Source of the DNA: an uncultured Candidatus Woesearchaeota archaeon
GTDB lineage: Archaea > Nanobdellota > Nanobdellia > Woesearchaeales > UBA10107
Reading direction: 5' to 3'
NCBI GenBank assembly: GCA_963835585.1
Contig: CAWIGF010000003.1
Coordinates: forward strand, 516,530 to 580,529
Length of the DNA stretch: 64,000 nt
The number at the start of each line of letters is the position of its first letter. Within the stretch, counting starts at the first letter, position 1. The translations under genes were made by a program, and so were the position numbers. The notes under the pieces were generated by a model. That model saw only the letters and a list, made by a program, of their open reading frames with translations, had not been told where the DNA came from and did no database searches. Shown one piece after another: positions 11,995 through 37,314 of this stretch.

Positions 11995-12663
11995 ATGAAA
12001 GTAAGATACGTATTCGCAAAGGCATATGTAGATGTAATTCCTGTTCTGAAAAAAACACTGCCTTTGATAAAAGGGAGAGTAGGAATCATAACCACAATAC
12101 AGTACCTTCATCTCATGAAGGACATAAAGAAGTTCTTCGACGACCATGATATAAAGGCTGAAACGCTGGGTCAAGTCCTTGGGTGCAACACAAAAGTTAC
12201 GGAAAAGAGCAAAGCGGACACAATCATTTTCTTCGGGGATGGATTGTTCCATCCAAAAGGGATGGCCTTGAAGAAGAAATATGTCATAATTGCTAACCCA
12301 TTGTCGAAGACAGCAAGATTATTGACAAAACAAGAAATGGATGATTTTGAAAAAAAGAGATACGCCGGCCTTGCGAAGTTCTACGCATCGAAAAACATCG
12401 GAGTTTTAGTTACATTAAAGCCAGGACAGGAACAGATGAACGCGGCATTGGATCTGAAACACAAATATCCTGGCAAGAACATGTACATCTTGGTATTTGA
12501 CGACCTCAACTGGAATTCATTGGAAGATTTTCCCTTTGTCGAATGCTTCGTGAACACTATGTGCCCCAGGATCGCATATGATGACTACTCAAAATTCCCG
12601 AAGCCGGTCGTGGATTTCCTTGACTTGATCGAGAACGAGAAAAAGGCGAAGAAAAGAAAATGA
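11995..12663 (+). CDS. Dph2-family diphthamide synthase-like protein, lacking N-terminal domain 1
   Basis: 222 aa. It matches my recollection of archaeal Dph2 domains 2-3 (GQVLGCN...; DFPFVECFVNTMCPRIAYDD). The first ~100-aa domain carrying the first cluster-ligating Cys is absent. Confidence 0.5.
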   Translation: MKVRYVFAKAYVDVIPVLKKTLPLIKGRVGIITTIQYLHLMKDIKKFFDDHDIKAETLGQVLGCNTKVTEKSKADTIIFFGDGLFHPKGMALKKKYVIIANPLSKTARLLTKQEMDDFEKKRYAGLAKFYASKNIGVLVTLKPGQEQMNAALDLKHKYPGKNMYILVFDDLNWNSLEDFPFVECFVNTMCPRIAYDDYSKFPKPVVDFLDLIENEKKAKKRK

Positions 12664-13064
12664 AAATCTGGAAATTATTTACGCTGTTGATTATCCTTGC
12701 AGGATGTTCCTCTCAAGTAAGCTCAGTAAAAATAAACAATATCGACATCCCTGTCAAACTGGCAATTACAGAAGCGCAAAGAGAAAATGGATTGATGTAC
12801 CAGACAAATCTAACAGGAGGTATGCTTTTCGTGTATGATAGCGATTCGCCCCACACATTCTGGATGAAGAACATGTTGATTCCATTGGACATAATATACA
12901 TCGGAGGCAACGGCACGATAACAAACATATGGCACGCTCCTCCGTGCACATCCGACCAATGCTATCTATACCCGGGATACGGAAAATATGTTCTTGAGGT
13001 CAACGAAAATTTCACGAATGTTAACAATATCTCAGTAGGCGATACTGTTTCACTCGTGAGATAG
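12660..13064 (+). CDS. DUF192 family protein with lipoprotein-like signal peptide
   Basis: 134 aa. DUF192 pattern (ENGLMY...GMLFVY....FWMKNMLIPLDIIYI...YVLEVN). N-terminus has signal plus lipobox LAGCSS. Confidence 0.7.
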   Translation: MKIWKLFTLLIILAGCSSQVSSVKINNIDIPVKLAITEAQRENGLMYQTNLTGGMLFVYDSDSPHTFWMKNMLIPLDIIYIGGNGTITNIWHAPPCTSDQCYLYPGYGKYVLEVNENFTNVNNISVGDTVSLVR

Positions 13065-18767: not shown

Positions 18768-19151
18768 TCAAACTAAAATAGCGTTCAGAAATCCCTGCTG
18801 ACCAGGCCTTGATGTTATCCTTGCTTTTCCCTTCGAAGTCTGGACTATTACTCCCCTTGTGAGGATGTTACGCCTGACGTACTGCGAATTCGCAGGATTT
18901 TCGAGTACTGTCTCGACATCGACAATTGAATATTTTTTTGTCTTGGGATCGTAAAGATTTACTTTGTTTGCATCCAATGACTTTATCTTATTTATGCCGC
19001 TTCTGGCTCTTACGACCTTTATTTTAGCCGCTCCCAATTTTGTGAGGACTGGAGGCCTTGCAAGCTCGTACTGCTTGGGCTTCCTAAATGATATGTATTT
19101 GGCCCCGCTTCCAGAACGCTTTGTGATGCCCCTTGTCTTTATAGATGCCAT
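18768..19151 (-). CDS. rps8e: ribosomal protein S8e
   Basis: 127 aa from the internal ATG (MASIKTRG...). S8e motifs are present (KVVRARSGINKIKSL..ANKVNLYDPKT...VLENPANSQYVRRNILTRGVIVQT..GKARITSRPGQQGFLNAILV). A TATA-like TTTATAA lies ~30 bp upstream. Confidence 0.85.
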   Translation of the reverse strand: MASIKTRGITKRSGSGAKYISFRKPKQYELARPPVLTKLGAAKIKVVRARSGINKIKSLDANKVNLYDPKTKKYSIVDVETVLENPANSQYVRRNILTRGVIVQTSKGKARITSRPGQQGFLNAILV

Positions 19152-19203
19152 GGTATTTTTGCTTGGATACTCATTTATAAATATTACTGTGTTTTTGGCT
19201 GAT

Positions 19204-20021
19204 AGGCTCTGTCCTAAAAGTCGGTAAAGCCAAGAAAATAAGTTATGGCAGACTAGCCGCAAATATACTTCTGTGCGGATTGTCCGCACAGTTTTGGAGC
19301 TGACACTAGCTCCAAACTTGCGTTTTATACTGCTGTTGCTTGATTCAACAAGCGATCTTCGATGATACGTTCTCAATCGATACTGCCTCGCCATTTTCTT
19401 ACGATAACGACCTCGCTTTGCGTTCTTTTTCGCTGGAACCATGAGCACCATGTTGTGCTCATGCGCAAACTTGAACAAATACTCGGCAGAATATCCTTTG
19501 TCTGCCACAGCAATCCTCGGATTACTGTTTTTTAAGAGAAATTTCGCATCCTTGATGTCGTGTGCTGGAAGCACACGAATCTTCGCAGCGCAGAATTTCT
19601 TTTTTCGCGTGTCGAATGCTGTGCTTAGTTTGATGGGAATACAAGGGAAATTCCCGTCGATGCGCTTCAGATAATGATAGCTCGGATTTGTCCTCGACAA
19701 ACCTGTGCTGTCGATGGCAACGAGATGCGAGTTGCCACAAGTTATGCTCAATATTTTCTGCCAGAAAGCTGTATCGAGTTTTGCAGCGGTATACTGCAAC
19801 GCTGATTTGCTTGGGCATCGTATGCCAAGCAAATCGCAGTGTTCCCGGACCCTGCGATAGGACAATCTGCAATATGCCTTGATGATCAGTGCGTGCAAAT
19901 GCTCCAGAAATTCATACGTCTTCGGTCCGAAATGGTGCAGCCATCTCGGACAGCCCAATCTCCTCAACAAACGCTTAAGTTTTTGTATTAGTTTTGTTTC
20001 TTTTCCCATGTGGGGGTTCAC
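19204..20021 (-). CDS. IS5-family DDE transposase
   Basis: DDE triad context: VAIDSTGLS / VADKGYSAEYL / SLVESSNSSIKRKFG, with C-terminal RLVCHNLFSWLYRLL. The ORF has no stop inside the IS and runs in frame into rps8e. Confidence 0.7.
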
Positions 20022-20911: not shown

Positions 20912-21853
20912 ATGAAACAAACACTCGTTGCTTTAGCGGTTCTTTTGACACTATTGACTGTTGGCATACATGTTGTTAATGCAGATATACAAGAGATAAA
21001 TACTACCGCAAGTCAGGTAATAAACGCGGGTTCTCAGGACAATGCCATATTCGAAGTCCAGACGCTAAAATACGAACCATATCCTGTTAATGCGGGAGAT
21101 TGGTTCGACATATGGATCAAGGCGGAAAATATCGGGAATGATGACGCGATAAATTCGCAGTTCATATTGATCCCTGAATATCCATTTGAGGCCGATAACG
21201 AATCATCACTTACTCAGAACTTGGGAACGGTTCCCGGCATGACATCCGCTTACCTGAACAGGCAACAAGGAGAGATTAGTCAGGAGAGCAATTATGTCAC
21301 GTTGAAATTCAGGGTCAAGGTTGCTGACAACGCTCCGGAGGGAGACAGCAGCCTGAAAATAATGAGCAGAACAGACAACACTGGAGATTTCGTTTATTTG
21401 CTTCCGATCACAATAGAAAAGACAAAGACAGATTTTGAGGTAAAAATGAATGACCTTAATGCGCAGGAGACGTCATTCATAGTGACAAATTCAGGAGAAA
21501 AAGCAGCGGAGTCGGTAGTCATAAATGTTCCTCCGCAGGATGGCGTCGTACTTTTGCAGGGAGAAGGACCAGTTTCGATGGGGGACATGAATAGCGGTGA
21601 TTTCAGCATAGCGCACCTGGACATATTGCCGACGCAAAATGCAACTAACATAACGATGGACATATCATACACGGACATTTCCGGAATAAGGGACACGATA
21701 ACAAAAACAGTCCCAATCGACAGCACAAAATTATCCCTCATCTATGCGCCAATATCCCATTCGAATTACACATGGACATTCGGCATAGTCGGATTTCTGA
21801 TTGGGGCATTCATAGTCATATTTGGAATAAGGATTTTCCATAAAAAGAAATGA
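20912..21853 (+). CDS. secreted surface protein with C-terminal TM anchor
   Basis: 313 aa. Signal peptide MKQTLVALAVLLTLLTVGIHVVNA, a CARDB/Ig-like middle region, and a C-terminal hydrophobic helix plus a basic tail (IFHKKK). Confidence 0.45.
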   Translation: MKQTLVALAVLLTLLTVGIHVVNADIQEINTTASQVINAGSQDNAIFEVQTLKYEPYPVNAGDWFDIWIKAENIGNDDAINSQFILIPEYPFEADNESSLTQNLGTVPGMTSAYLNRQQGEISQESNYVTLKFRVKVADNAPEGDSSLKIMSRTDNTGDFVYLLPITIEKTKTDFEVKMNDLNAQETSFIVTNSGEKAAESVVINVPPQDGVVLLQGEGPVSMGDMNSGDFSIAHLDILPTQNATNITMDISYTDISGIRDTITKTVPIDSTKLSLIYAPISHSNYTWTFGIVGFLIGAFIVIFGIRIFHKKK

Positions 21854-22548
21854 CGATTGTTGTACGATATGGAGAAAAAAAATCATCTCTAGCCGAAATA
21901 GAAAAAGTTATAGAGAAGGATGAGAAGAAAGTTACTAACTTCTTCGGACGCCAGAGCACTATAAATTTTTTGATAATATTCGTATTTGCTGTTCTTTTAG
22001 CGGGTGTGCTCTACCTATCCACCGAAGAAAATCAAGTCTACATAGAGAATTCATTGGTCGACGCTCCCGTGATTTCACTTTCTTCGGAAACACCAGGAGT
22101 GCTGGATTACATATTTGTCAAGGAAGGAGATCATGTTACGGCAGGCATGACTGTCGCAGAAGTTAACGGAACTCCGATAAAAGCTCAAATAGATGGATTG
22201 GTAACATCTGTTTTCAACACACCGGGCCAGATAGTCAATAGCGAAACACCAATTGTCAATATGATTGATCCCCAGCAATTGAGGATTGTCGGGGCCCTTG
22301 AGGAAGACAAGGGACTCAAGGACATAAAAGTCGGGCAGAAAGCCGTATTTACATTGGATGCGTTCGGTTCTGAGAAATTTGATGGCGTAGTTGACTCGAT
22401 AGGCCAGACGTCAGCAGCCCAAGACATCGTTTTTAGCATATCCAGTACAAGACAGGAAAAAAACTTCGACGTGTATGTAAAATTCGATGCGAACCAATAC
22501 CCCCAAATCAAGAGCGGCATGTCTGCTAAGATATGGGTATACAAATAA
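21850..22548 (+). CDS. HlyD/EmrA-type membrane fusion protein
   Basis: 232 aa. N-terminal TM, a biotin-lipoyl-like hairpin (GDHVTAGMTVAEV) and a beta-barrel region. The ATGA overlaps the upstream gene, and the downstream gene is a major-facilitator-superfamily (MFS) EmrB-like pump. Confidence 0.6.
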   Translation: MTIVVRYGEKKSSLAEIEKVIEKDEKKVTNFFGRQSTINFLIIFVFAVLLAGVLYLSTEENQVYIENSLVDAPVISLSSETPGVLDYIFVKEGDHVTAGMTVAEVNGTPIKAQIDGLVTSVFNTPGQIVNSETPIVNMIDPQQLRIVGALEEDKGLKDIKVGQKAVFTLDAFGSEKFDGVVDSIGQTSAAQDIVFSISSTRQEKNFDVYVKFDANQYPQIKSGMSAKIWVYK

Positions 22549-22557
22549 GCAAATACT

Positions 22558-24036
22558 ATGGCAGAATCCAATCTAAGATGGTGGGTGCTTACGACAGTCA
22601 TCATCGGCACTTTTCTTGGACGTCTTGATCAGACTATAGTGAATCTTGCGCTGCCAAAGATAATAACCGCATTCAGGATTACCGTTGTTTCTGCCGGTTG
22701 GATCGCGACAGCGTACATAATCGCGAACGCGGTTTTTGTTCCAGTCTGGGGGAAATTGGGAGACAAGGTCGGAAGAAAAAAAATTTACATCCTTGGATTC
22801 AGCATATTCATATTAGGATCAGTCCTTGCGGGTCTTGCCTGGAATCTGACATCCCTGATTTTTTTCAGGGTCATACAAGCGACGGCAAGCGCTGCTGATT
22901 ATCCGACTGCCATGGCCATTATCACCATCACATTCAAGCAGGGAAAAGAACGCGCCCAAGCCCTTGGGTTATGGTCGACATCATTTGCCGCAGCAACAGT
23001 ATTTGGACCATTGATCGGCGGTCCATTGATCGATTTTTTCGGATGGCGCTCTGTTTTCTTGGTGAACTTACCAGTCGGCATAATAGGTATGTTCATGGCT
23101 ATAAAATTTATTGACGAATCTGTATCCAACGACAGAAAGGAGAAATTCGACATCTGGGGAACCATTTATCTAGGAGTAACGTTGTCTTCCTTGGTTCTTG
23201 TCCTTGATCAGGGGATGACATGGGGCTGGCTGTCGCTTAACAGCATAATTTGCTACGTAGTCATTGTCGTATTCTTCATACTATTTTATCTTACAGAGAA
23301 GCATCACACGGATCCTATTGTGGATCTGAAATTTTTCAAGAACAAGATATTTGTCGGCACTTTGGTAAATAATTTTGTGGTCTTCATGGGGATGATGGGA
23401 AGTGTATTCCTCATCCCTTTGTTCTCACAGACGTTTCTGGGATATAGTGCACAGCAAAGCGGATACCTTTTCATTCCAATGGCGGCATTCATGGTGATTT
23501 CTGCCCAGATCGGTGGACGCCTTATTGGAAAGATAAAATCAAATTATGTAATGGCATTGAGCACATTCATTGCCGCAATAGGATTAATGATGTTTGGCCT
23601 TTACATAGATCCACGTTCAAATGCATGGGCTATAGTAATTCCCCTTTCAGTCATGGCATTTGGTCTAGGCCTGGGGATGGCGCAGCGTACTAGCGCCATT
23701 GCGAACGCCGTCCCCCAGAACGAGATCGGAATCGCATCGTCCATTCTGGCGCTTACGAGGAACATTTCGGGAGCGTTCGGGATAGCTATTTTTGCGACGA
23801 TACTTGATAACAGAATCACTAGTAACATAATAAGAACTGCGCAGCATACCGTCATTAATTCAATTAACCCAACTGTATATCAAAAAGTGGCCGGACTGAT
23901 AATACTCAAGTCAGAAGTTTCCGCATATTCGTATGTCTTCTGGATATCCGCGCTGGTTGTCTTCATCGGCGCTATCATGGCCTTGTTCATAAAAATAACA
24001 AAAGAAACGAACGTGAAAGTGCACATAGACGCGTGA
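22558..24036 (+). CDS. MFS drug efflux transporter, EmrB/QacA (DHA2, 14-TMS) family
   Basis: 492 aa, about 14 hydrophobic segments. MFS motifs are present (GRLDQTIVNLALP; GKLGDKVGRKK). Confidence 0.8.
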   Translation: MAESNLRWWVLTTVIIGTFLGRLDQTIVNLALPKIITAFRITVVSAGWIATAYIIANAVFVPVWGKLGDKVGRKKIYILGFSIFILGSVLAGLAWNLTSLIFFRVIQATASAADYPTAMAIITITFKQGKERAQALGLWSTSFAAATVFGPLIGGPLIDFFGWRSVFLVNLPVGIIGMFMAIKFIDESVSNDRKEKFDIWGTIYLGVTLSSLVLVLDQGMTWGWLSLNSIICYVVIVVFFILFYLTEKHHTDPIVDLKFFKNKIFVGTLVNNFVVFMGMMGSVFLIPLFSQTFLGYSAQQSGYLFIPMAAFMVISAQIGGRLIGKIKSNYVMALSTFIAAIGLMMFGLYIDPRSNAWAIVIPLSVMAFGLGLGMAQRTSAIANAVPQNEIGIASSILALTRNISGAFGIAIFATILDNRITSNIIRTAQHTVINSINPTVYQKVAGLIILKSEVSAYSYVFWISALVVFIGAIMALFIKITKETNVKVHIDA

Positions 24037-24054: not shown

Positions 24055-27000
24055 TTAACTAAGCAAGCCAGCACTAGAACTTCCTAGAGCAACTCCTGGT
24101 GTTGCATAGATAAGCGTTATGTATTGTCCAGGATCAGTCGAATTACCGGCGAATATTATTTTCATGAAACCGCTTGACGTGAACAAGTCGTTAATGCCAG
24201 CAGGGGCCTGATTTACATATTTCAATTCTGCGATATATGCATCGTCGTTCAAGTCTTGAGGCGTATCTGCAATATTTATTCCATTCCATGTTCCTGAACC
24301 TGAGTTTGGCAATGAAACAACGGTGCCATCGAGTTCTACATTATCCACCTTAAGAAAGTCACCATCAACAAATTCATATTGATGTGCACCAAGAGCAACT
24401 TTACATGTGCTAGCTCCAGCAGCATTGGTCGAAATATTAATCACGCCGACGTTTAAACCATTGATTGTTTCTACTGAGTTCTGATCAATGATTGCAGCTA
24501 TATTATTGACATTAATCTGACATGAATTAGATGATGTGGTAGTCATGAGCGTAACATTGTACTGATTTCCACCAATAGTTGTTGAGAACGGTTGATTTTG
24601 TTTCAACAATGCTGGATTACCTAAGACTGTCGTAATGCTGCTTAAAACACCATTATTTGCCGTCGCGCTTACAATGATGTGTATTGTCCCAAGCATCGCG
24701 AACATCGTTCCTGCGAAATTTGCCGAAACATCATTTGGATCAAATATAACTGAACTATTGAATAAAAGCGAGTAGCTGTAAAGAGGGTTATTCTTGCCTA
24801 TGTACAAATATTCATCCCTGATTGGAGCGAGTCGATTGTCCTCTGTATTCTCCACAAGAATATTGTTCGGATTAGAAATCAGCGAGAGTGTTTGATTGTC
24901 CGACACTAAATTTCCGGCAGCGCCATTGTCTTGCAAATCACTATATTTTCCGTTCGCAAGCACTCTTGGAAAATCAACCACAGTTATTGTTGGTTTTACC
25001 TGACTTAACGAACTACCATCTGTCGTATTTATGCAAAGGACATCATTTTTTACTATGGTAAAATTAGAATCGAGAGCAGCGACAGCTGCCTCAGCGCTAC
25101 TGCACATGAATGGTCCGCTGAATTGTGTTTGAGTGAGAGTTAATGGAACACAACTTCCAGAAGTGCAAATCTGTCCTGTGGAACAATCGGAATTCGAAGA
25201 GCATGTTGATGCTGTTGTGTTCACTATGCAATTTCCATTAGAGCAAATCTGCCCTGAAGGACAAACAGTCACATCATTGCTAAGTGGACATCCAAATCCT
25301 CCATAAGCTGTATGTCCCATGATTGTTCCGTTGATATTGTAACTTGTCACATTGAATGTTCCTGTCAGCTGAGGCGCCCATGCTGTTGAGTTATAACATA
25401 TTGGTCCATTTCCTTGAACGTTGATTGCGTTTGGTGGAGGGCATGTTGACACAGTCGTATTTATCACGCAATTTCCAGATGAGCATGCATATCCTGAACC
25501 GCACGATGAAAGAGCTACCCTGCATTGGAAAAATCCCCCTGTTTGATTGCTTCCCATGTACACAATTCCAGGCGTTGTCAAATTCATGCACGTGCCGTAG
25601 CCAGTACCAGATGTAGCATTAGGTGCTGGGCACGTTGATGTTGTAGTAGGTGATACGCAAGAAGCAAAACCTCCATTTTGTTGAGAGCAAATCTGCCCTG
25701 CAGGACAAGAAATAGGATCATGATAACAACCATATGAACCTGAGCAAGTTGGCGAAGAGAACATTCCTCCTCCTACCAAAATCTGTCCATGCGTCTGGTA
25801 CATTATCGCTGTTGAATTATAGCAATAAGGAGTGTTTGTTGAACTGCCACATATGCTGACTCCTTGCGGAGGACATGTACCGCATGCGTTATTTGAACAT
25901 CCATTCACACAAGAAATATTATTCAAAAAAGTACCATAAATAACCATTTCCGTTGCATTATTCAAAGTACCATAACCATTTCCGTAGTAGTAGTCGATTC
26001 CGTTGCATGTGTAAAGAAGCAAGTTTGTTCCGTCAGCGGAGCAAGTAGTAGTCGCATTCAAGTAAGCGCCGTTTATAGGTCCCCATGTTATTGTGCTATT
26101 TACTTGAGTACATTGAACTGCTGTTGTATTTTGTGTGCCTAAACATTGTTGACCAGAACCATATTGAGGAATCCATGATTCAAGTGTGACATCAGTTACA
26201 TTTATCAAAGTTTCATTGACTGTTTGTGATGAATTTACGTCAACAATGAAGGTAATATTACCTAGAGTGAGTTGACATACATAGCCAGAATAATCACTGC
26301 CAATAGCGTCCAATGTAACGCCAGAAAAGTTTGTGCCCTCTTTTACCGTCGAAAAAATTCCGTTCACACCAAATGTACATGTGCTATTCATCGGGTCAGG
26401 TCCATTAATTAGACAGGATGATGCATTCACTATGGGAGTCGCTACGTTGGTAACGCAAACATTATTTGAGCAAACCTGTCCCGAACTGCAATCAGAATCT
26501 ACGCTGCATGTGTTAGTGTTAATCTGCAAATTGCCAGGCGCAGGTGGAGCAAGAGGAAGATTAGGAACTGTTATTGTCGTATTGATTATCTGAAGCATCC
26601 ACTCGCCAGCAGGATTGTTAACGCTGCCGTGACAATCCCAAGTTACCAAATCACTCGACCTTGAGCACGCATATGCCACGACGTATATTGGCTGGCTTTG
26701 ATTAATTAAGGATTGATTGAGAAGATAATCCTCTGTTATGGACAGGGGTGCCGTTACATTCCCGCTTATCCAGCCGCTAGAACCAACGGTTGCCTGAGGG
26801 AATGTGAATGGATACCATGTACTGGAATTACCATTGTAAACGTAGCCAGTTTTGTAGACATACTGTTCTCCATTTACTCCGACATTCGCCACTACTGCAT
26901 TATTAGTAAAATTAAACTCAGTATTAGCATAATTGATGCCGAAAGTCGTTGGAAGCGCATATCCCTGCGAATAAGCGTCTATGGCCTTTCCAAGAGGAGC

Positions 27001-27093
27001 ATTGAATGAGGAAGAGCTTGGAGTTGGAGGAAGATTCTGACTACATGCCACAATCAAGAACAATGTAAGGATAAATAGTCCTGTTTTTCTCAT
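24055..27093 (-). CDS. large Cys-rich, sequon-rich surface lipoprotein paralogous to the S-layer protein
   Basis: 1012 aa. Signal plus lipobox (FLIVAC|SQ). Repeated CxxGQ[IV]CSxxxC modules. More than 40 N-x-S/T sequons. The C-terminal ~350 aa align with aa ~110-350 of the 34801 S-layer protein (NTEDNRLAPIRDEYLYIGKNNPLYSYSLLF vs TEDDRLAPNAGDYLYIQKDQQLYNYSLEF). Confidence 0.6.
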   Translation of the reverse strand: MRKTGLFILTLFLIVACSQNLPPTPSSSSFNAPLGKAIDAYSQGYALPTTFGINYANTEFNFTNNAVVANVGVNGEQYVYKTGYVYNGNSSTWYPFTFPQATVGSSGWISGNVTAPLSITEDYLLNQSLINQSQPIYVVAYACSRSSDLVTWDCHGSVNNPAGEWMLQIINTTITVPNLPLAPPAPGNLQINTNTCSVDSDCSSGQVCSNNVCVTNVATPIVNASSCLINGPDPMNSTCTFGVNGIFSTVKEGTNFSGVTLDAIGSDYSGYVCQLTLGNITFIVDVNSSQTVNETLINVTDVTLESWIPQYGSGQQCLGTQNTTAVQCTQVNSTITWGPINGAYLNATTTCSADGTNLLLYTCNGIDYYYGNGYGTLNNATEMVIYGTFLNNISCVNGCSNNACGTCPPQGVSICGSSTNTPYCYNSTAIMYQTHGQILVGGGMFSSPTCSGSYGCYHDPISCPAGQICSQQNGGFASCVSPTTTSTCPAPNATSGTGYGTCMNLTTPGIVYMGSNQTGGFFQCRVALSSCGSGYACSSGNCVINTTVSTCPPPNAINVQGNGPICYNSTAWAPQLTGTFNVTSYNINGTIMGHTAYGGFGCPLSNDVTVCPSGQICSNGNCIVNTTASTCSSNSDCSTGQICTSGSCVPLTLTQTQFSGPFMCSSAEAAVAALDSNFTIVKNDVLCINTTDGSSLSQVKPTITVVDFPRVLANGKYSDLQDNGAAGNLVSDNQTLSLISNPNNILVENTEDNRLAPIRDEYLYIGKNNPLYSYSLLFNSSVIFDPNDVSANFAGTMFAMLGTIHIIVSATANNGVLSSITTVLGNPALLKQNQPFSTTIGGNQYNVTLMTTTSSNSCQINVNNIAAIIDQNSVETINGLNVGVINISTNAAGASTCKVALGAHQYEFVDGDFLKVDNVELDGTVVSLPNSGSGTWNGINIADTPQDLNDDAYIAELKYVNQAPAGINDLFTSSGFMKIIFAGNSTDPGQYITLIYATPGVALGSSSAGLLS

Positions 27094-27153
27094 GTGTCTA
27101 GTCCCTTTTGTGGTTGTCCTAAAAATTAATCTTAGACTATTTAAACATTATGC

Positions 27154-28101
27154 TCAAGAATGTTTTTTCCTGTATACTTCAGATACCACAACAACAATAA
27201 GCAAAATCAGAGTAATAATAAGCACGGTCGCAGTGTTGCGCAGGCAAGTGCCGCTTGTCAGGAGTTGCCACGATATCTTGGACTCGATAAGCGCACCGAC
27301 TACCAGCATGATTATAGATGATATGAATATTAATACAGCATATCTCAATGTTTTGAAGAATCCCGAAGAAAACAACTTCTCATTTGAAACCGAGAACGAC
27401 AACACGCATCCTGCTATTGCCGCCAAGAAATATGCAATGACTTCCGGGATCATGTGGAAGAACATCACTCCCATGTTGCATGCCATGATTGAAAACAAAG
27501 CGACCTGCCCGAAAGTTCCTGCCGACTGCCTTATCACATCGGCCAATGCGAACGCGAAGATGGATGAGTTCATCATCAACAACAGCAATGATCCTGCTCC
27601 GTAGAGCAATGACAGAATGAATGCAATTATCATGACGTACAGATTATTCGAGAATATGCCCATGAACAAGGCGTTGCTGTCTATTGGCGGCGGCGGGATG
27701 CCAGCGTTCTGAGGAAGTATGACGCTCGTGCTGCTGCCGAAAAGCTGCGCTTCTGAAAATACTCTGCCAGGAGCGATGAGCGCTATCAAAAAAAACACGA
27801 CAAATGACCCTATGAAAAAATATATGTAGAAATCAAGTATGTGTCTTGTCTTGGAGAGGAACGTCTTCTTCGCGATGAAAGACTCCATCTTGAACAAACT
27901 CATCACGACAGGCATCGCAAGGACGACAGTGAGCAATACTGTGCTTACGCCGACAAAATATGGCGTCTTGTTGAATAATAGATAAGACACAATAAAAGAA
28001 AAAATCGTGAAGAAGACGCCGGCAAATAACGCGTAATTCGCATTTGACTCAATATTTTTCAGGCTGAATATCTTATCGAACATTGCCAAATGCCTCATCA
28101 A
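27154..28101 (-). CDS. polytopic membrane protein (possibly SpoIIM/DUF95-like)
   Basis: 315 aa with at least 7 hydrophobic helices. The family assignment is tentative. Confidence 0.35.
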   Translation of the reverse strand: MMRHLAMFDKIFSLKNIESNANYALFAGVFFTIFSFIVSYLLFNKTPYFVGVSTVLLTVVLAMPVVMSLFKMESFIAKKTFLSKTRHILDFYIYFFIGSFVVFFLIALIAPGRVFSEAQLFGSSTSVILPQNAGIPPPPIDSNALFMGIFSNNLYVMIIAFILSLLYGAGSLLLLMMNSSIFAFALADVIRQSAGTFGQVALFSIMACNMGVMFFHMIPEVIAYFLAAIAGCVLSFSVSNEKLFSSGFFKTLRYAVLIFISSIIMLVVGALIESKISWQLLTSGTCLRNTATVLIITLILLIVVVVSEVYRKKHS

Positions 28102-28987
28102 TCATGTCCTGCCTGTATCCGTTCTGCAGCAGAGATGCCTTGATTTGGTCCTGTGAATATCCTCGTTGCAGCATCTGGGTTATGTACGCGCGTGCCTGCA
28201 TGGCCTGGGCATCCTGAACAGGTTCTGTTTGCTTCTTCGCGAATGGCTTTTTGATGAGGATGAAAAGGACGCATGCAAGTATTATCACCAACAAAATTCC
28301 GCCGTATAATAGATAATCAGGACCTGAACTCTGTTGTGAGGAAACGACAGTAGATTGAACATTTTGTTCTGTAGGAGGAATATTTTGCTGAGTTACAGGA
28401 GGTGCGGTTTGTGGTGTCTGGACAATTGGTGTTTGTACTGGTGTGCTCTGTTGGGATGAACTATTTACCGGCTCGTTCACAATGATTCCTGAATTTGAAG
28501 AAAATCCACTGCCGCTAGATGATGATGAGCCTGATGATGTTGTGGTTATTGATGCAGTTGTCGTTACTGTCAATGATGCAGTCTGCGTTGGATCGGAATT
28601 CGAGGTTGCGGTTATTGTAATAGGATATTGCTGGCCGTTTGTGGAACTGCTTGGAACAATGTACGTCATGGCGGCAGTCCCTGATGAGCCTGCAGAGACG
28701 GAAACAGAAGTTGGCTTGATTTGCGCGTTAAGATTATTTGTGCTCAAGGAATATGTATCATCAACAGTTCCGCCATTTGCAATAGTTATCGTGTATGTGG
28801 CAGTGGAACCTGGCGCCATGGACTGGGCAGAGTGATCAACACTCAAGCTTATGTTTACGACATTGAGCAATGGACTAGCAGGAGGAGTTGGAACTCCTTG
28901 AGCCAATGCAAATACAGCAAGCAGAACGGAAAGAAAAAACGTTAAAACGAATGCCCTCTTCATGGACCAGTTAAAATAGAATGACAT
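28073..28987 (-). CDS. secreted S/T-rich surface protein with C-terminal TM anchor and short cytoplasmic tail
   Basis: 304 aa. Signal peptide, a CARDB-like beta domain, a long Ser/Thr/Gln linker, a TM helix (LLYGGILLVIILACVLFILI), and a tail with two GY(S/R)QDxI repeats. Confidence 0.45.
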   Translation of the reverse strand: MSFYFNWSMKRAFVLTFFLSVLLAVFALAQGVPTPPASPLLNVVNISLSVDHSAQSMAPGSTATYTITIANGGTVDDTYSLSTNNLNAQIKPTSVSVSAGSSGTAAMTYIVPSSSTNGQQYPITITATSNSDPTQTASLTVTTTASITTTSSGSSSSSGSGFSSNSGIIVNEPVNSSSQQSTPVQTPIVQTPQTAPPVTQQNIPPTEQNVQSTVVSSQQSSGPDYLLYGGILLVIILACVLFILIKKPFAKKQTEPVQDAQAMQARAYITQMLQRGYSQDQIKASLLQNGYRQDMIDEAFGNVR

Positions 28988-29685: not shown

Positions 29686-30195
29686 ATGTCATTACTAGAA
29701 AAAGTATCAAAATCGGTCAAGATTGCAGGATTAGCAGGAGCACTTCTTGGAGCGACAATGTTAGGCTGTTCTAATAACAATAATCCCACATCACCTAAAC
29801 CGACACCCACTCCGTCAATAATAACGACGGGAACTCCTTCGATGTCTGTCACATACGTGCCACCTATTGGAAGCTCGGATGAATTTGCTGGAACAGTGAA
29901 TCATCTCCAACCCGCGGACTACGTCATAACTGGCTATGATTATGTTCCAAATGTCGGTGGATGGTGGGTGAAACCAACAACGATGACCCCGTACGTAAAA
30001 ATCAACAGCGATGGTTCATGGAGTTTTGATTACGACACGGGAAGGTACACAGGAGGGTATGATGAGTATTCGACGCAGGTCGCATTCTTCCTAATACCTG
30101 CATCTCAGATTCCGAATATTCCTATTGTGGAGAATAGCGCTACATTGCCTAATATCAGTTTTGCTGTCGCCCAGACGATAGTAAACAGGAACTAA
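29686..30195 (+). CDS. putative lipoprotein
   Basis: 169 aa. Signal plus lipobox (LGATMLGC|SNNNN), followed by a Pro/Thr linker. Confidence 0.45.
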   Translation: MSLLEKVSKSVKIAGLAGALLGATMLGCSNNNNPTSPKPTPTPSIITTGTPSMSVTYVPPIGSSDEFAGTVNHLQPADYVITGYDYVPNVGGWWVKPTTMTPYVKINSDGSWSFDYDTGRYTGGYDEYSTQVAFFLIPASQIPNIPIVENSATLPNISFAVAQTIVNRN

Positions 30196-32677: not shown

Positions 32678-33688
32678 ATGACAATAAAGAACGCAATCAA
32701 CGAACGCTATTTTGAAGAAGAATCGAAAGCCATGTACTATGTCTTAGGTGCTTTCTATAACTGCTATCGCCCATCGACAAAGTATGGGAACTATTTTATT
32801 TTTCAATCACAATACAAAGACCTTGTGCGGATAATAAATAAAGAGCTTGAGTCCAAATATTCAATAACATGTACTGACTCCAAACATGGAAGAAATTCGC
32901 ACATGATATACGCACGGTCGCTACAACTCAAGAATGACCTTGTCCATCTTGGCTTGAATGCCCCAAGGGAAGAACGAAAATTCCCGGAAAAAATAAAAGA
33001 GGAAAATATAAGTCATTTTGTCAGGGGATTTATTGATGCAACTGCAACAGCTTTCCAACCAAAAAGCAATGGATACACGACACTCGAAATCCATTTCAAC
33101 AATTTATTCTTATCAGAACTTAATGATGTTTTGAAAAAATATGCAGGAGTGAATCGTGAAAAGAAAACAGATTCAAATACTATCTACTATGGCCACAAAA
33201 ATGCAATACGTATTCATGATTTCATCTATAAGGACTGGCAGTACATCCAGGAAAGCGGCCTCTGCTTGCCATGGAAAAAAGAACTCTTCGGAACAGACTA
33301 TGTTGTAAAACAAACAAGGGCAACTAAACTTAAATTACAAAAGAGAATAGAGGCGGCAATTACATTATTTCGTGAAGGCAAGTATACTGCGGTTGAAATC
33401 GCCAATCTAGTCGGCTATAAATCTCCTCCTGCATTCTACGCGGGATTCAGAACAGTGACAGGAGAGCCTCTTATGCAATGGATGCGAGAGAATAATATTC
33501 AGCACATCACAAAAGGATTCAGGAAATCACTCGCAAAAATCGAGAAATCCAAGGAGTGGATGATTCAAAACACGAATCCCTTGGATATTTTCAAAATGCT
33601 AGGCTATAGCTCTTATTACAAATTTAGCAAAGCGTTCGAGCGACACACAGGAAAAACAATAACGGAATGGAACAGACAAATTAATTGA
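32678..33688 (+). CDS. putative regulator: degenerate double-LAGLIDADG-like N-terminal domain fused to AraC-type HTH
   Basis: 336 aa. Two LAGLIDADG-like segments (YYVLGAFYNCY; FVRGFIDATATAF). The C-terminus has two AraC-like HTH units (AVEIANLVGYKSPPAFYAGFRTVTGEPLMQW; IFKMLGYSSYYKFSKAFERHTGKTITEW). Confidence 0.4.
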   Translation: MTIKNAINERYFEEESKAMYYVLGAFYNCYRPSTKYGNYFIFQSQYKDLVRIINKELESKYSITCTDSKHGRNSHMIYARSLQLKNDLVHLGLNAPREERKFPEKIKEENISHFVRGFIDATATAFQPKSNGYTTLEIHFNNLFLSELNDVLKKYAGVNREKKTDSNTIYYGHKNAIRIHDFIYKDWQYIQESGLCLPWKKELFGTDYVVKQTRATKLKLQKRIEAAITLFREGKYTAVEIANLVGYKSPPAFYAGFRTVTGEPLMQWMRENNIQHITKGFRKSLAKIEKSKEWMIQNTNPLDIFKMLGYSSYYKFSKAFERHTGKTITEWNRQIN

Positions 33689-34800: not shown

Positions 34801-37314
34801 ATGGAAGTAAAGAAAGTATTGAAAGTGGCGACTGCAATCGCAGCGAGTGCCTCCTTTATTGGAGCAACATTGCTAGGTGCAGTAGCACAAGATCTGTCGA
34901 CATATCCGGCGCCATTCGTAAACAATGGCGTATTTGACGCGTTTATCGTCGTCGGTGCAAATGCACAACCGGTAGATATAGTCGGCGCAGTCGACGTTGG
35001 AGCAAGCCTTCAATTCTCATTGAAGCAGGCAACAACACAAGTTGGCGCTAGCAGCGCAACAATTGACAACGGCGTAATGATCCAGAAGTCTGGAAACAAG
35101 TTCGTCTACGGGAATTCAATCTCGTCGGTAGAAGGAGCAGGAGCATCCCTTTCACAGGATGACTTGCCATTGATACTTGCAGACGGAAAATACGTTGATT
35201 CTGAAGGAACTAATACAAATTCTGTAACGTACACTCAGAGGCTCGCGTTCAACACGAACACCACAGCTAGTTTGGTATACACAGAAGATGACAGATTGGC
35301 TCCAAATGCAGGAGACTATTTGTACATACAAAAAGACCAACAGTTGTACAACTACTCGCTTGAATTCGACAGCCCAGTTGTCTATGACGACACAACCAGC
35401 GCAGACGCGCTCAATGACTGGAAGACAACGACACTCAACATAGAAGGAAAGACTTACACAGTTACTGACTTATCATTGACAGCATCTCTCGGAAAGCTTT
35501 CATCGATTACATTGTTATCAGGAGAAGCTGTTTTGTGGTTAACGCAAGACAATCCAATAACAAAGACTGTTGATGGCGTACAACACACTATTGAAGTATT
35601 GTCCGTTACTGAGCCAGCTGTATCTCAAACAATGGGATGTCAGGTTCAAGTTGACGACGTTACTGCAATCATAGATGTTGATAGCACGCAGACAATCAAC
35701 GGAGTCCAGATTGGTGTAACTGATGCAAGAGCAATCAGGTCACAATTACAGGACACGAACGTATGCCAGTTATCCATTGGAGCAAGCCAAATCGAGCTTA
35801 AAGATGGAGACCAGGTACAAGTTGACGGGACAAACCTAGAAGGTTCCATGACAACTTTCCATGAAGCTACTAATGGACAGTTCGAAGGATTTGACGTTGT
35901 ATACAACGCAAATGATTTAACTGACGACAAGTACTTGACGGCAGGCCAAGAATTCATCGACCCGGTATTCCAAAGCTGGAAGATCGTGTACGGCGGATTG
36001 ACTGCTAACTACGAAAACTACACAATACGAACGAGTGGAAGCGCGAACGCGTACTTTGACTTCATCAACAATGCTGGAAAGCAGGTTGAGATACCAATGT
36101 ACATGAACAAGACTGGAGCAGCTGCGAACAACAAAATCTTCTTAGGAAGAGGTTCGAACCCTAACCAGCAATTGCTTGCAACCGGAACCGGCATAAGCGG
36201 AGCTGACATTCCCGCAAACATCTCAACAAGTTCCGTATCGAACTTGGAAGGAGTGGATATCCTTGCAACAACACCAACTGGAGAAGCACACGTGTTTGAA
36301 ATCTCAAGCATAGACACCAACAAGAACCAGACGAACATCCAAGATTTGACGAATGGAAGAACATTCGACAATCTTGACTACACACCTAGTATATACACTC
36401 AGTTGTCACTTGGATCGTTTGGATCGTTGAACGTTGATTTCGCGGGTAGCGCGATTTCTGCAAAAGTAGACCTATTGGATAATACAACAACCGCATTCGT
36501 TGGTGTGTCAAATACAGTACCTGCGAAAGTTGAAACGCATGCACTTGGTTCAATCAGCCTTGCTGACATTAACGGAGGCAATGTAACGATTTCGTTGTCA
36601 GAACTTGACAGAAACGGCAATGCAAAGATACCTGTTCAGCAACCAGCTTCAGTTGTATCAATTAACGTATACGAGGACACGACAAGCAACCACAACGGCC
36701 AGATTGATGTAGGTCCAGCATCTGCAACAAATGTAACTGCAACACCACTTACGTTGATAGCGAACAACGTCAACCTAGCAGCTGACAACTCGAACTACGA
36801 AGTTCTTGTAACACCAGTTGGTACAGTAGTAACGTCTGACAACAACAATTACGCATCAGTCGTAATACAGATGCCTACTGCAGAAGTATACGGAAACGTA
36901 TTCATCGCACCAATCGTTGCACAATTAACAGGTGCAGCAGGTGGGTCACCAGCATATACAATCTCGAAATTGAATGTTGGCGCAGCAAAGCTTGACAGTG
37001 ATGTCACTGACATAACGGCAGACAACTTAATCATTATTGGCGGACCTTGCGCAAATAGCGTCGCAGCGAAAGCACTTGGGTTAACATACCCAGCATGCGG
37101 AACTGCTTCAGGAATTGCAGCAAACACGGCAATAATCAAGGAAGTTGCTCAGTCGACAGGAAAAGTATCTCTAGTCGTCGCAGGTTACTCTGCAGATGAC
37201 ACGCAAAGAGCTACAAGAGTCCTTTCAAACTACAACGCATACAACTTAACAGGAAGTAGCGTTACAGTTACAGGAACTAGCCTGACTGACATACAAGTTT
37301 CGAAATCAGCGTAA
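34801..37314 (+). CDS. S-layer protein (Methanococcales-type N- and C-terminal S-layer motifs)
   Basis: 837 aa. Signal peptide. N-terminal motif FIVVGANAQPVDIVGAVDVGASL and C-terminal motif NLIIIGGPCANSVAAKAL. The gene has a long AT-rich leader, a strong GGAGGTG ribosome-binding site (RBS) 8 nt before the ATG, and a T-rich terminator downstream. Confidence 0.6.
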   Translation: MEVKKVLKVATAIAASASFIGATLLGAVAQDLSTYPAPFVNNGVFDAFIVVGANAQPVDIVGAVDVGASLQFSLKQATTQVGASSATIDNGVMIQKSGNKFVYGNSISSVEGAGASLSQDDLPLILADGKYVDSEGTNTNSVTYTQRLAFNTNTTASLVYTEDDRLAPNAGDYLYIQKDQQLYNYSLEFDSPVVYDDTTSADALNDWKTTTLNIEGKTYTVTDLSLTASLGKLSSITLLSGEAVLWLTQDNPITKTVDGVQHTIEVLSVTEPAVSQTMGCQVQVDDVTAIIDVDSTQTINGVQIGVTDARAIRSQLQDTNVCQLSIGASQIELKDGDQVQVDGTNLEGSMTTFHEATNGQFEGFDVVYNANDLTDDKYLTAGQEFIDPVFQSWKIVYGGLTANYENYTIRTSGSANAYFDFINNAGKQVEIPMYMNKTGAAANNKIFLGRGSNPNQQLLATGTGISGADIPANISTSSVSNLEGVDILATTPTGEAHVFEISSIDTNKNQTNIQDLTNGRTFDNLDYTPSIYTQLSLGSFGSLNVDFAGSAISAKVDLLDNTTTAFVGVSNTVPAKVETHALGSISLADINGGNVTISLSELDRNGNAKIPVQQPASVVSINVYEDTTSNHNGQIDVGPASATNVTATPLTLIANNVNLAADNSNYEVLVTPVGTVVTSDNNNYASVVIQMPTAEVYGNVFIAPIVAQLTGAAGGSPAYTISKLNVGAAKLDSDVTDITADNLIIIGGPCANSVAAKALGLTYPACGTASGIAANTAIIKEVAQSTGKVSLVVAGYSADDTQRATRVLSNYNAYNLTGSSVTVTGTSLTDIQVSKSA

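What the first reader, a model, noticed from the sequence alone, without database searches (positions are those of the whole stretch)
24055..27093. 1012-aa Cys-rich, sequon-dense lipoprotein that is a paralog of the S-layer protein
The protein has a bacterial-type lipobox (LIVAC|S). Its C-terminal third aligns convincingly with an internal region of the S-layer protein at 34801 (for example NTEDNRLAPIRDEYLYIGKNNPLYSYSLLFNSSVIFDPND vs TEDDRLAPNAGDYLYIQKDQQLYNYSLEFDSPVVYDDTT, and QNSVETINGLNVGVIN vs DSTQTINGVQIGVTD). The N-terminal two-thirds is different: repeated small Cys-knot-like modules (C-x2-G-Q-[IV]-C-S-x3-C at least five times, about 60 Cys in total) embedded in Thr/Ser/Asn-rich sequence with dozens of N-x-S/T sequons. 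This looks like a second S-layer or cell-surface component, or a host-attachment adhesin for an episymbiont, in a family I cannot place.
Basis: seen in the sequence. Interest (0 to 1): 0.6.

Follow-up and report, generated by a model that had tools for sequence, protein, structure and literature searches.

The report
Lipid-anchored S-layer-like surface protein, DPANN archaeon
This gene encodes a membrane-lipid-anchored, cysteine-rich surface glycoprotein of a probable Woesearchaeota archaeon whose far end copies part of the cell's own S-layer protein; it always sits beside a SpoIIM-like membrane protein gene, so it probably ties the otherwise anchorless S-layer to the membrane.

Summary
The 1012-aa ORF is real but lies on the minus strand (24055..27093). 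It has 45 Cys, not about 60, and 34 N-x-S/T sequons against 21.5±3.9 expected, with the excess confined to the Cys-rich insert. Residues 657-983 align with residues 71-399 of the neighbouring S-layer protein (32% identity, E=2e-40).

The protein has four parts:
- a Sec signal peptide with lipobox (IVAC) and a conserved [DN]LPPxPG motif;
- an undescribed ~150-aa Ig-like domain;
- a 465-aa lineage-specific, disulfide-rich and sequon-rich insert;
- the first half of the S-layer protein's central region, without the PF05124 "dimeric anchor" domain.

The window is archaeal. The only relatives found in named genomes are Woesearchaeota MAGs. At least 16 relatives share the lipobox and N-domain but carry different passenger domains. 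Every S-layer-like member with readable flanks sits next to a SpoIIM-family gene (arCOG01994), usually with a bitopic membrane protein gene as well.

Best reading (inferred, about 0.45): a lipid-anchored tether or minor S-layer component linking membrane and lattice. An adhesin role is not excluded. I rate it a new variant of a known kind, of moderate interest.

The parts
24055..27093 (-). Whole gene: 1012-aa lipobox protein (P0001)
   Evidence: ORF list and translation. The identical protein is on record on a 681-kb contig.
27138..27145 (-). TTTAAATA, an archaeal TATA-box-like element about 50 nt upstream of the ATG, in the 60-nt gap after the SpoIIM-like gene
   Evidence: Read directly from the sequence. 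Promoter function is inferred, not tested.
27043..27093 (-). Signal peptide and lipobox, aa 1-17 (MRKTGLFILTLFLIVAC)
   Evidence: The Cys is present at the end of the h-region in all 17 family N-termini, though MAFFT shifts it by one column in a few rows.
27016..27042 (-). Post-Cys motif SQNLPPTPS, matching the family consensus C-x2-3-[DN]-L-P-P-x-P-G
   Evidence: Alignments A3 and A4. The motif is absent from the two other lipobox ORFs of the window.
26524..27015 (-). N-domain, about aa 27-190: Ig-like beta-sandwich with a conserved Cys pair (C143, C154). No Pfam or NCBIfam family.
   Evidence: 17-member alignment. No Pfam hit for any member. AF2 model has pLDDT 82.5. Only generic Ig-like matches in the PDB, TM 0.3-0.4.
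25129..26523 (-). Cys-rich, sequon-rich insert, aa 191-655: 38 Cys, 21 sequons, and five 4-Cys modules C-x4-6-C-x-[SA]-G-[QY]-x-C-[ST]-x3-8-C. Three of the modules are extended by a ~40-55-aa 'TCP(P)' segment.
   Evidence: Only sub-threshold hits to DUF7107 and TIGR04201. Absent from the orthologs P0002, P0005 and P0040.
26140..26331 (-). Probable degenerate second copy (aa 255-318) of the ~85-aa 'C-Q-x-x-V...IIDV.S..T(I/V)N...C' beta sub-domain of the S-layer-like region
   Evidence: Second BLASTP HSP, target 273-301 against S-layer 280-308, E=7e-5. Repeat profile scores 12.2 bits, a weak match.
24058..25128 (-). S-layer-like region, aa 656-1012, homologous to aa 71-399 of the S-layer protein. 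It has a conserved Cys pair (C858, C897).
   Evidence: AF2 model has pLDDT 79.9 and pTM 0.81, all-beta. No significant PDB fold match.
27154..28101 (-). Directly upstream gene: SpoIIM-family polytopic membrane protein (PF01944 / arCOG01994)
   Evidence: Pfam 40.7 bits against a cutoff of 26.9. Orthologs at 37-60% identity sit next to the lipoprotein in L002, L003, L005, L006/L007, L009 and L010.
28073..28987 (-). Next gene upstream, overlapping the SpoIIM-like ORF as listed by 29 nt: a bitopic membrane protein. It has a signal peptide ending ALA|Q, a Pro-rich stretch, a DUF11/Ig-like ectodomain, a TM helix and a conserved cytoplasmic tail.
   Evidence: Weak Ig-like/DUF11 Pfam hits, all at or below their curated cutoffs. 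Five-locus alignment A6.
34801..37314 (+). The cell's canonical S-layer protein (837 aa, P0003), donor-type paralog of the target's C-terminal region. It has no TM or lipid anchor.
   Evidence: PF05124 hit at E=8e-12. The family profile hits PDB 9FSA, the M. voltae S-layer protein. The signal peptide is its only hydrophobic stretch.

Best explanation
The gene encodes a Sec-exported archaeal lipoprotein.

Inferred processing: the lipobox Cys17 is lipid-modified and the signal peptide is removed, leaving the protein tethered to the outer face of the cytoplasmic membrane.

Shown architecture, running outward from the membrane:
1. A conserved Pro-rich linker (NLPPTP).
2. An Ig-like N-domain.
3. 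A 465-aa stalk of small disulfide-bonded modules, probably heavily N-glycosylated.
4. A beta-rich region homologous to the first half of the lattice-forming central part of the cell's own S-layer protein.

The target lacks the N/C-terminal 'dimeric anchor' domain (PF05124) of true S-layer proteins. In its place it has the lipid anchor and stalk.

Inferred function: the S-layer-like head docks into or co-assembles with the S-layer lattice. The protein would then act as a membrane-to-S-layer tether, or as a minor membrane-anchored lattice component, for an S-layer protein that has no membrane anchor of its own. It would work together with the SpoIIM-family polytopic membrane protein and the bitopic membrane protein encoded directly upstream, as one conserved envelope module.

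The Cys-rich glycosylated insert is a lineage-specific spacer or exposed decoration, not part of the conserved core.
For: Shown:
- ORF, signal peptide and lipobox. The lipobox Cys and [DN]LPPxPG are conserved in the family N-termini.
- S-layer homology at E=2e-40. An exhaustive profile search finds 854 family members, mostly ~800-aa S-layer proteins.
- The neighbouring S-layer protein carries PF05124. The family profile hits PDB 9FSA, which its authors describe as the dimerising anchor domain of the M. voltae S-layer protein (PMC11410804). The target lacks these segments.
- The S-layer protein has no TM or lipid anchor.
- Fusion evidence: P0039 joins the same lipobox and N-domain to an essentially complete S-layer protein.
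- Membrane anchoring of this S-layer-like region recurs in other forms: other lipobox N-termini (P0089, P0092, P0137) and C-terminal TM helices (P0104, P0112, P0119).
- All 7 distinct loci with an S-layer-like N-domain protein and readable flanks have an adjacent SpoIIM-family gene at 37-60% identity. Those loci are the window, L002, L003, L005, L006/7, L009 and L010. Five of them also have the bitopic gene.
- The target's S-layer-like region is at least as similar to its own genome's S-layer protein (31.8%) as to the orthologous lipoproteins P0002 and P0005 (27.5% and 26.1%).

From the literature: lipobox proteins are predicted to be prevalent in DPANN archaea (PMC12462473).
Against: - No direct evidence of lipidation, glycosylation, disulfides, localisation or binding to the S-layer.
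- Stalk length varies from about 40 aa (P0002, P0005, P0040) to about 465 aa (target). That is awkward for a spacer meant to bridge a fixed membrane-to-lattice gap.
- The target carries only half of the central S-layer region, and it is not known which part of that region makes lattice contacts.
- The phylogeny of the shared region is unresolved. Bootstrap support is at most 39% for the groupings tested, so co-evolution with the cognate S-layer protein is not demonstrated.
- The same N-domain also carries FN3, LamG-like and CARDB-like passengers. It is therefore a general display platform, which fits an adhesin or variable-surface-protein role just as well.
- No complex prediction could be run.
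Confidence: 0.45

Rival explanations
1. Host-attachment adhesin or variable exposed surface protein of an episymbiotic DPANN archaeon. The lipid-anchored N-domain would be a generic display platform. The Cys-rich glycosylated stalk would push a binding head beyond the cell's own S-layer, and the S-layer-like head would bind a partner cell's surface, for example a host S-layer, rather than its own lattice.
For: - The only relatives found in named genomes are Candidatus Woesearchaeota MAGs.
- The N-domain family carries highly variable passengers: FN3, LamG-like, CARDB-like, CxDSDGG modules and S-layer-like repeats.
- The lipoprotein diverges much faster than its neighbour: 31-41% identity against 54-60% for SpoIIM in the same loci.
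- The insert is lineage-specific, sequon-enriched and disulfide-rich, as expected for an exposed region.
Against: - The head is homologous to the organism's own S-layer protein family, not to a known adhesin fold.
- No host is known, and nothing in the window bears on symbiosis.
- Tight conserved linkage with SpoIIM and the bitopic protein across divergent lineages suggests a housekeeping envelope function.
- The orthologs P0002, P0005 and P0040 lack the long stalk that would be needed to project beyond the S-layer.
Confidence: 0.25
2. An alternative or second S-layer subunit that itself forms a lattice, or patches of lattice, directly on the membrane.
For: - Clear homology to the S-layer central region.
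- P0039 shows that a complete S-layer protein can carry this lipobox and N-domain.
Against: - The target lacks the PF05124 dimerisation domain and the counterpart of S-layer residues 400-700.
- It has a 465-aa insert that is not conserved in its orthologs.
- A canonical S-layer gene lies 7.7 kb away.
Confidence: 0.1
3. A substrate or partner of the SpoIIM-like protein in membrane or envelope remodelling, such as division, vesicle formation or S-layer insertion. On this reading the S-layer-like head only targets the complex to the lattice, and the module's real activity resides in the membrane proteins.
For: - Conserved three-gene module.
- arCOG01994 was predicted to act in membrane remodelling or vesicle formation, and it is operon-linked to arCOG02177 (AliA), the lipoprotein lipidation enzyme, in euryarchaea (PMC5898192, PMC12462473).
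- In B. subtilis, SpoIIM recruits wall-remodelling enzymes (as summarised in PMC5898192).
Against: - No experimental function exists for any archaeal SpoIIM homolog.
- Gene adjacency does not reveal mechanism.
- The FN3-type N-domain protein is not next to SpoIIM. This rests on L004 and L012, which are effectively one independent case.
Confidence: 0.15

Closest known systems
Methanococcales/Thermococcales-type archaeal S-layer proteins (Pfam PF05123/PF05124; M. voltae SLP, PDB 9FSA)
   Same: Residues 657-983 are homologous to the central region of this family (E=2e-40 to the window's own member). The sequence is acidic and beta-rich, with one conserved Cys pair.
   Different: The target has no PF05124 N/C-terminal 'dimeric anchor' domain and only half of the central region. 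Instead it carries an N-terminal lipobox, an Ig-like domain and a Cys-rich insert.
SlaB of Sulfolobales (membrane-anchored stalk protein that holds the SlaA lattice)
   Same: The proposed role is the same: a separate, membrane-anchored, elongated protein that connects the lattice to the membrane. This is functional analogy only.
   Different: No sequence relationship was detected or tested. SlaB uses a C-terminal TM helix and a coiled-coil, and it is not a paralog of SlaA. Here the anchor is an N-terminal lipid and the head is a paralog of the lattice protein.
Archaeal lipobox lipoproteins (Haloferax volcanii AliA/AliB substrates; PMC12462473)
   Same: A Sec-type signal peptide with a canonical lipobox [LVI][ASTVI][GAS]C. 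Such proteins are predicted to be prevalent in DPANN archaea.
   Different: Known examples are mostly solute-binding proteins and redox proteins. None known to me carries an S-layer-derived domain, and the conserved post-Cys [DN]LPPxPG motif and N-domain are undescribed. AliA/AliB presence in this genome was not checked.
Haloferax volcanii S-layer glycoprotein (ArtA/PGF-CTERM lipid anchoring)
   Same: An S-layer-related polypeptide tethered to the membrane by a covalent lipid.
   Different: That anchor is C-terminal, archaeosortase-dependent, and sits on the lattice protein itself. Here the anchor is an N-terminal lipobox on a truncated paralog.
Short Cys-rich repeat families (Pfam DUF7107, NCBIfam TIGR04201 Myxo_Cys_RPT, Dickkopf_N)
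   Same: C-x5-C-x2-G-x2-C-x4-C spacing of the 4-Cys modules.
   Different: All hits fall below the curated cutoffs (22.0 against 24.6, 15.7 against 25, 15.8 against 25 bits). This is resemblance in pattern, not demonstrated membership.

Membership tests
Archaeal/bacterial-type lipobox lipoprotein | N-terminal signal peptide with a positive n-region and a hydrophobic h-region | tested here: met
   MRK + TGLFILTLFLIVA. It is the top Kyte-Doolittle window of the protein.
Archaeal/bacterial-type lipobox lipoprotein | Lipobox [LVI][ASTVI][GAS]C at the end of the h-region | tested here: met
   I-V-A-C17. A Cys at the end of the h-region is present in all 17 family N-termini.
Archaeal/bacterial-type lipobox lipoprotein | Thioether lipid on the Cys and removal of the signal peptide | not testable with these tools
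   Needs mass spectrometry of the native protein.
Archaeal/bacterial-type lipobox lipoprotein | Lipidation machinery (AliA/AliB, arCOG02177/02178) in the genome | not tested
   Only a 64-kb window was available, and no reference AliA sequence was at hand.
PF05124/PF05123 archaeal S-layer protein | N-terminal (DL..YP.PFV..G..D..IVVG..A) and C-terminal (VGGPCAN...LLVAG...DT) segments that together form the PF05124 domain | tested here: not met
   No PF05124 hit for the target at E<=1, and the segments are absent in alignment A2. They are present in the neighbour P0003 (E=8e-12) and in the consensus of 80 family members.
PF05124/PF05123 archaeal S-layer protein | Central (lattice) region homologous along its whole length | tested here: inconclusive
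   Only S-layer residues 71-399 have a counterpart, at 32% identity and E=2e-40. Residues 400-700 have none.
PF05124/PF05123 archaeal S-layer protein | Self-assembly into a 2-D lattice | not testable with these tools
   Needs assembly assays, cryo-ET or multimer modelling.
DUF7107 / TIGR04201 Cys-rich repeats | Score at or above the curated cutoff | tested here: not met
   22.0 against 24.6 bits, and 15.7 against 25 bits.
SpoIIM family (PF01944, arCOG01994), upstream neighbour 27154..28101 | Pfam score above the gathering threshold | tested here: met
   40.7 bits against 26.9. The H-x-I-P-E and N-[AS]-S-I-F-A motifs are conserved in 5 orthologs.
SlaB-like S-layer anchor | Sequence or fold homology to SlaB, with a C-terminal TM helix and coiled-coil stalk | not tested
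   No comparison with SlaB was run. One search shows no C-terminal hydrophobic stretch in the target. The link is functional analogy only.

The most novel reading that the evidence does not exclude
The conserved trio of bitopic protein, SpoIIM-family protein and S-layer-like lipoprotein is a dedicated machine that anchors or inserts the anchorless Methanococcales-type S-layer in DPANN archaea. In it, the archaeal SpoIIM homolog (arCOG01994) acts directly on the lipoprotein, for example by recognising the conserved C-x2-3-[DN]LPPxPG N-terminus. Because arCOG01994 is also operon-linked to AliA in euryarchaea, it could be a missing component of archaeal lipoprotein maturation, conceivably the unidentified lipoprotein signal peptidase or a lipoprotein-handling factor.
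Probability: 0.1. Interest if true: 0.85.

Novelty: new variant of a known kind. Interest (0 to 1): 0.58.

Why it matters
How S-layers of the Methanococcales/Thermococcales type are held on the membrane is not settled, because these proteins have no TM helix or lipid anchor. DPANN envelopes are almost unstudied.

A lipid-anchored paralog of the lattice protein gives a concrete, testable candidate for the tether. It is conserved across divergent Woesearchaeota-like lineages, and in one relative it is fused to a complete S-layer protein.

The finding also gives a first specific genomic partner for archaeal SpoIIM homologs. [quoted passage not shown]

Finally, it defines an undescribed N-terminal lipoprotein display domain, with its [DN]LPPxPG motif, which could improve annotation of DPANN surface proteomes.

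Tried and rejected
- **Word-indexed homology searches.** Full length and alignment A1 returned only 2-3 proteins. They were swamped by composition, so I switched to the exhaustive profile search.
- **Cys-rich region alone (aa 395-655).** The search returned nothing, not even the query protein itself, so this negative is uninformative.
- **First genome-contig scan (A1).** No hits. The 17-sequence N-domain alignment was too divergent to derive search patterns. The 7-sequence subset gave 2 Woesearchaeota loci. The metagenome scan added only 3 short loci.
- **PDB sequence searches.** With the 3-sequence profile there were no hits. With the S-layer protein alone there was only a chance FN3 match.
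- **Phylogeny of the shared region.** The neighbour-joining tree suggested that the target, P0002 and P0005 are sister to the window's S-layer clade. Bootstrap support was only 4-39%, so I make no co-evolution claim. Monophyly of all the lipoproteins was recovered in 0 of 200 replicates.
- **Bacterial origin of the lipobox.** Rejected. The window encodes a split RpoB, RpoA'/A'', GINS51, aIF2-alpha and an intron-containing tRNA.
- **Sigma-70 promoter and terminator scan.** Not meaningful for an archaeon.
Full report
**1. The observation**

The coordinates hold a single 1012-codon ORF, but on the minus strand. The plus-strand reading is full of stops.

The product starts MRKTGLFILTLFLIVAC|SQNLPPTPS. 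This is a short positive n-region, a hydrophobic h-region and a canonical lipobox (I-V-A-C17). It is the only strongly hydrophobic stretch in the protein.

The composition is rich in Thr, Ser, Asn and Gly, and acidic (54 D+E against 19 K+R). There are 45 Cys, not about 60, and 38 of them lie in aa 191-655. Excluding the lipobox Cys leaves 44, an even number, which is compatible with full disulfide pairing.

There are 34 N-x-S/T sequons against 21.5±3.9 in shuffles. The excess lies entirely in the Cys-rich part (21 against 11.3±2.8, z=3.5). The C-terminal region (7 against 7.0) and the neighbouring S-layer protein (10 against 12.2) show none.

The motif CxxG[QY]xC[ST] occurs five times. Aligned, these are five 4-Cys modules of the form C-x4-6-C-x-[SA]-G-[QY]-x-C-[ST]-x3-8-C-[VI]. 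Three of them are preceded by a 40-55-aa 'TCP(P)...' extension carrying two more Cys.

BLASTP of the target against the ORF at 34801..37314 aligns residues 657-983 with residues 71-399. The homology is real and is not low-complexity.

**2. The organism**

The window encodes a split RNA polymerase B, A' and A'' subunits, GINS51 and aIF2-alpha. It also has a 106-nt tRNA match, longer than the 71-position model, which I read as intron-containing. The window is therefore archaeal.

The only named genomes that carry the target's N-terminal domain are two 'Candidatus Woesearchaeota archaeon' MAGs. The window's own genome was not identified directly. I infer a Woesearchaeota-like DPANN archaeon.

Two further lipobox ORFs lie in the window. 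This fits the predicted prevalence of lipoproteins in DPANN archaea (PMC12462473).

**3. The partner protein is a bona fide S-layer protein**

The 837-aa ORF hits Pfam S_layer_C (PF05124) at E=8e-12. The match is split between its extreme N- and C-terminal parts.

A profile of 80 family members hits PDB 9FSA with the same two segments. 9FSA is the crystal structure of residues 24-75 plus 484-576 of the Methanococcus voltae S-layer protein. Its authors describe it as the domain that dimerises the 'anchor' of the lattice (PMC11410804).

The 837-aa protein has no TM helix or C-terminal anchor. Its only hydrophobic stretch is the signal peptide.

**4. Anatomy of the target**

- **(a) aa 1-17:** signal peptide and lipobox.
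- **(b) aa 18-26:** NLPPTP, part of a family-wide C-x2-3-[DN]LPPxPG motif.
- **(c) aa ~27-190:** a domain with a conserved Cys pair (C143, C154) and invariant Trp, Tyr and Gly positions.
  - No member hits any Pfam family.
  - The AF2 model (pLDDT 82.5) is an all-beta sandwich.
  - It has only generic Ig-like neighbours in the PDB, such as pilus chaperones and the sulfite oxidase dimerisation domain, at TM 0.3-0.4.
- **(d) aa 191-655:** the Cys- and sequon-rich insert.
  - It gives only sub-threshold hits to DUF7107, Dickkopf_N and TIGR04201.
  - It contains a probable degenerate second copy (aa 255-318) of the ~85-aa 'CQ..V...IIDV.S..TIN...C' sub-domain of the S-layer-like region. The evidence is a BLASTP HSP at E=7e-5 and a repeat-profile score of 12.2 bits, which is weak.
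- **(e) aa 656-1012:** the S-layer-like region.
  - The AF2 model has pLDDT 79.9 and pTM 0.81 and is all-beta.
  - It has no significant PDB fold match.
  - The target has nothing that corresponds to S-layer residues 1-70 or 400-837. That includes the PF05124 domain.

**5. The family**

Word-indexed searches found almost nothing. An exhaustive HMMER search with a profile of the target, P0002 and the S-layer protein found 854 proteins at E<=1e-3 and 158 at E<=1e-30.

Most hits are ~800-aa canonical S-layer proteins with both PF05124 segments. At least 16 carry the lipobox and N-domain. After the N-domain they differ:

- S-layer-like region directly (P0002, P0005, P0040);
- S-layer-like region after one or more Cys modules (P0039, P0073, P0081);
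- arrays of the 85-aa sub-domain (P0005, P0011);
- FN3 domains (Pfam fn3 on record for P0113; read by eye in P0131), and regions I read by eye as LamG-like (P0136) and CARDB-like (P0142).

The lipobox and N-domain therefore form a display platform, and the target belongs to its S-layer-like branch.

P0039 is especially informative. It joins the platform to an essentially complete S-layer protein. Its N-terminal PF05124 segment has been moved next to the C-terminal one, which is a circular permutation.

Other proteins carry the same S-layer-like region on different anchors. Some have lipoboxes without the N-domain (P0089, P0092, P0137). Others have C-terminal TM helices (P0104, P0112, P0119).

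The 465-aa insert is not conserved. The closest orthologs (P0002, P0005, P0040) go from the N-domain to the S-layer-like region through about 40-50 residues. Among 151 collected proteins, the CxxG[QY]xC[ST] module is essentially unique to the target, and relatives use CxDSDGG modules instead.

**6. Gene context**

A 60-nt gap containing TTTAAATA lies between the target's ATG and the stop of the upstream gene. That gene is a SpoIIM-family polytopic membrane protein (PF01944, 40.7 bits against a cutoff of 26.9).

Overlapping that ORF, as listed, by 29 nt is a 304-aa bitopic protein. It has a signal peptide ending ALA|Q, a Pro-rich stretch, an Ig-like/DUF11 ectodomain (Pfam hits at or below cutoff), a TM helix and a conserved cytoplasmic tail NYIxQNLxxGYxxEQI...GYxQxxIDEAF.

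The pairing of SpoIIM-like gene and lipoprotein recurs in every other locus that has an S-layer-like N-domain protein and readable flanks. Identity of the SpoIIM-like gene to the window's copy, and the bitopic gene, are as follows:

| Locus | SpoIIM-like gene, identity to window | Bitopic gene |
|---|---|---|
| L002 | 60% | not seen (contig end) |
| L003 | 57% | present |
| L005 | 54% | present |
| L009 | 44% | present |
| L010 | 49%, truncated by the contig end | not seen (contig end) |
| L006/L007 | 37%, convergent arrangement | present |

The FN3-type member is not next to SpoIIM. This rests on L004 and L012, which are effectively one independent case. Loci L008, L011, L013 and L014 are too short to tell.

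In the same loci the lipoprotein is far more divergent (26-41% identity) than SpoIIM.

From the literature:
- arCOG01994 (the archaeal SpoIIM family) is ancestral and uncharacterised, and was predicted to act in membrane remodelling.
- In several euryarchaea it forms a predicted operon with arCOG02177 (PMC5898192).
- arCOG02177 has since been shown to be AliA, needed for lipoprotein lipidation.
- The archaeal lipoprotein signal peptidase is still unidentified (PMC12462473).

**7. Mechanism**

Shown:
- the protein has the features of a lipoprotein precursor;
- the four-part architecture;
- partial paralogy with the lattice protein;
- absence of the S-layer 'anchor' domain;
- the lack of any anchor on the S-layer protein;
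- recurrent fusion of this S-layer-like region to membrane anchors;
- a conserved three-gene envelope module.

Inferred: the protein is lipid-anchored, and its S-layer-like head docks into or co-assembles with the S-layer, tethering the lattice to the membrane in concert with the two membrane proteins. The Cys-rich, glycosylated insert is a lineage-specific rigid spacer or exposed decoration.

I put this at about 0.45. The main weaknesses are these:
- there is no interaction evidence;
- stalk length is highly variable;
- only half of the central region is present;
- the phylogeny is unresolved.

The rivals are an adhesin or variable surface protein (0.25), an accessory of a SpoIIM-centred remodelling complex (0.15) and a second lattice former (0.10).

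**8. Comparison with known systems, and novelty**

The protein works like SlaB (a separate membrane-anchored connector) and like the lipid-anchored Haloferax S-layer glycoprotein. It is a member of neither.

It fails the defining PF05124 test for S-layer proteins, although it is homologous to their central region. It meets the sequence criteria for a lipobox lipoprotein.

The N-domain and the [DN]LPPxPG motif match no Pfam or NCBIfam model. Full-text searches found no description of such a protein or of the SpoIIM linkage in DPANN archaea.

I class it as a new variant of a known kind: an archaeal lipoprotein acting as an S-layer-associated anchor. Interest is moderate (0.58). It would be higher if the SpoIIM link proves functional.

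Noticed in passing
window 27154..28987 (-); L003, L005, L006/L007, L009, L002, L010: A conserved three-gene envelope module: a bitopic protein, a SpoIIM-family protein (arCOG01994) and the lipoprotein. In euryarchaea arCOG01994 is operon-linked to AliA, the lipoprotein lipidation enzyme. That makes it a candidate lipoprotein-handling or S-layer-anchoring factor.
   Followed up: partly
window 28073..28180 (-), the C-terminal ~35 aa of the bitopic protein; also the C-termini of P0065, P0082 and P0108: A small conserved cytoplasmic tail (NYIxQNLxxGYxxEQIxxxLxQxGYxQxxIDEAF, with weak RecX-HTH-like hits) ends both the bitopic module proteins and giant proteins containing the S-layer-like region. 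It may be a shared cytoplasmic docking module for surface proteins.
   Followed up: no
L006 1076..4285 (P0039): A lipobox and N-domain fused to an essentially complete S-layer protein. Its N-terminal PF05124 segment has been relocated next to the C-terminal segment, an apparent circular permutation.
   Followed up: partly
window 27016..27042 (-), 28880..28920 (-) approx., and the SpoIIM-like loop around aa 125-140: All three module proteins carry a Pro-rich motif predicted to lie near the outer membrane face. The lipoprotein has [DN]LPPxPG, the bitopic protein has AQxPPPPP, and SpoIIM has ILPQNxGIPPPPI.
   Followed up: no
L002 2830..3996: The gene directly downstream of the ortholog P0002 also begins with the N-domain (33% identity) and carries a thrombospondin type-3 repeat. 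N-domain paralogs therefore occur in tandem.
   Followed up: no
window 18768..20021 (-): One 417-aa ORF gives both a DDE transposase (PF01609) hit and a ribosomal protein S8e hit. An IS element probably abuts or reads into the S8e gene.
   Followed up: no
window 54130..54235 (+): A 106-nt tRNA match found by Rfam but missed by ARAGORN. It is probably an intron-containing archaeal tRNA.
   Followed up: no
window 20912..24036 (+) and 32678..33688 (+): Bacterial-looking genes in an archaeal context. A DUF11-like surface protein, a HlyD-family protein and an MFS transporter lie convergent to the target, and there is an AraC-type HTH regulator.
   Followed up: no
window 12660..13064 (+) and 29686..30195 (+): Two further small ORFs with lipobox signal peptides (LILAGC|SSQ and TMLGC|SNNNN). 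Neither has the [DN]LPPxPG motif.
   Followed up: no
window 61403..63892 (+): An 829-aa protein with Hsp70/MreB-like actin-fold hits. This is unusually long for an archaeal DnaK or MreB homolog.
   Followed up: no
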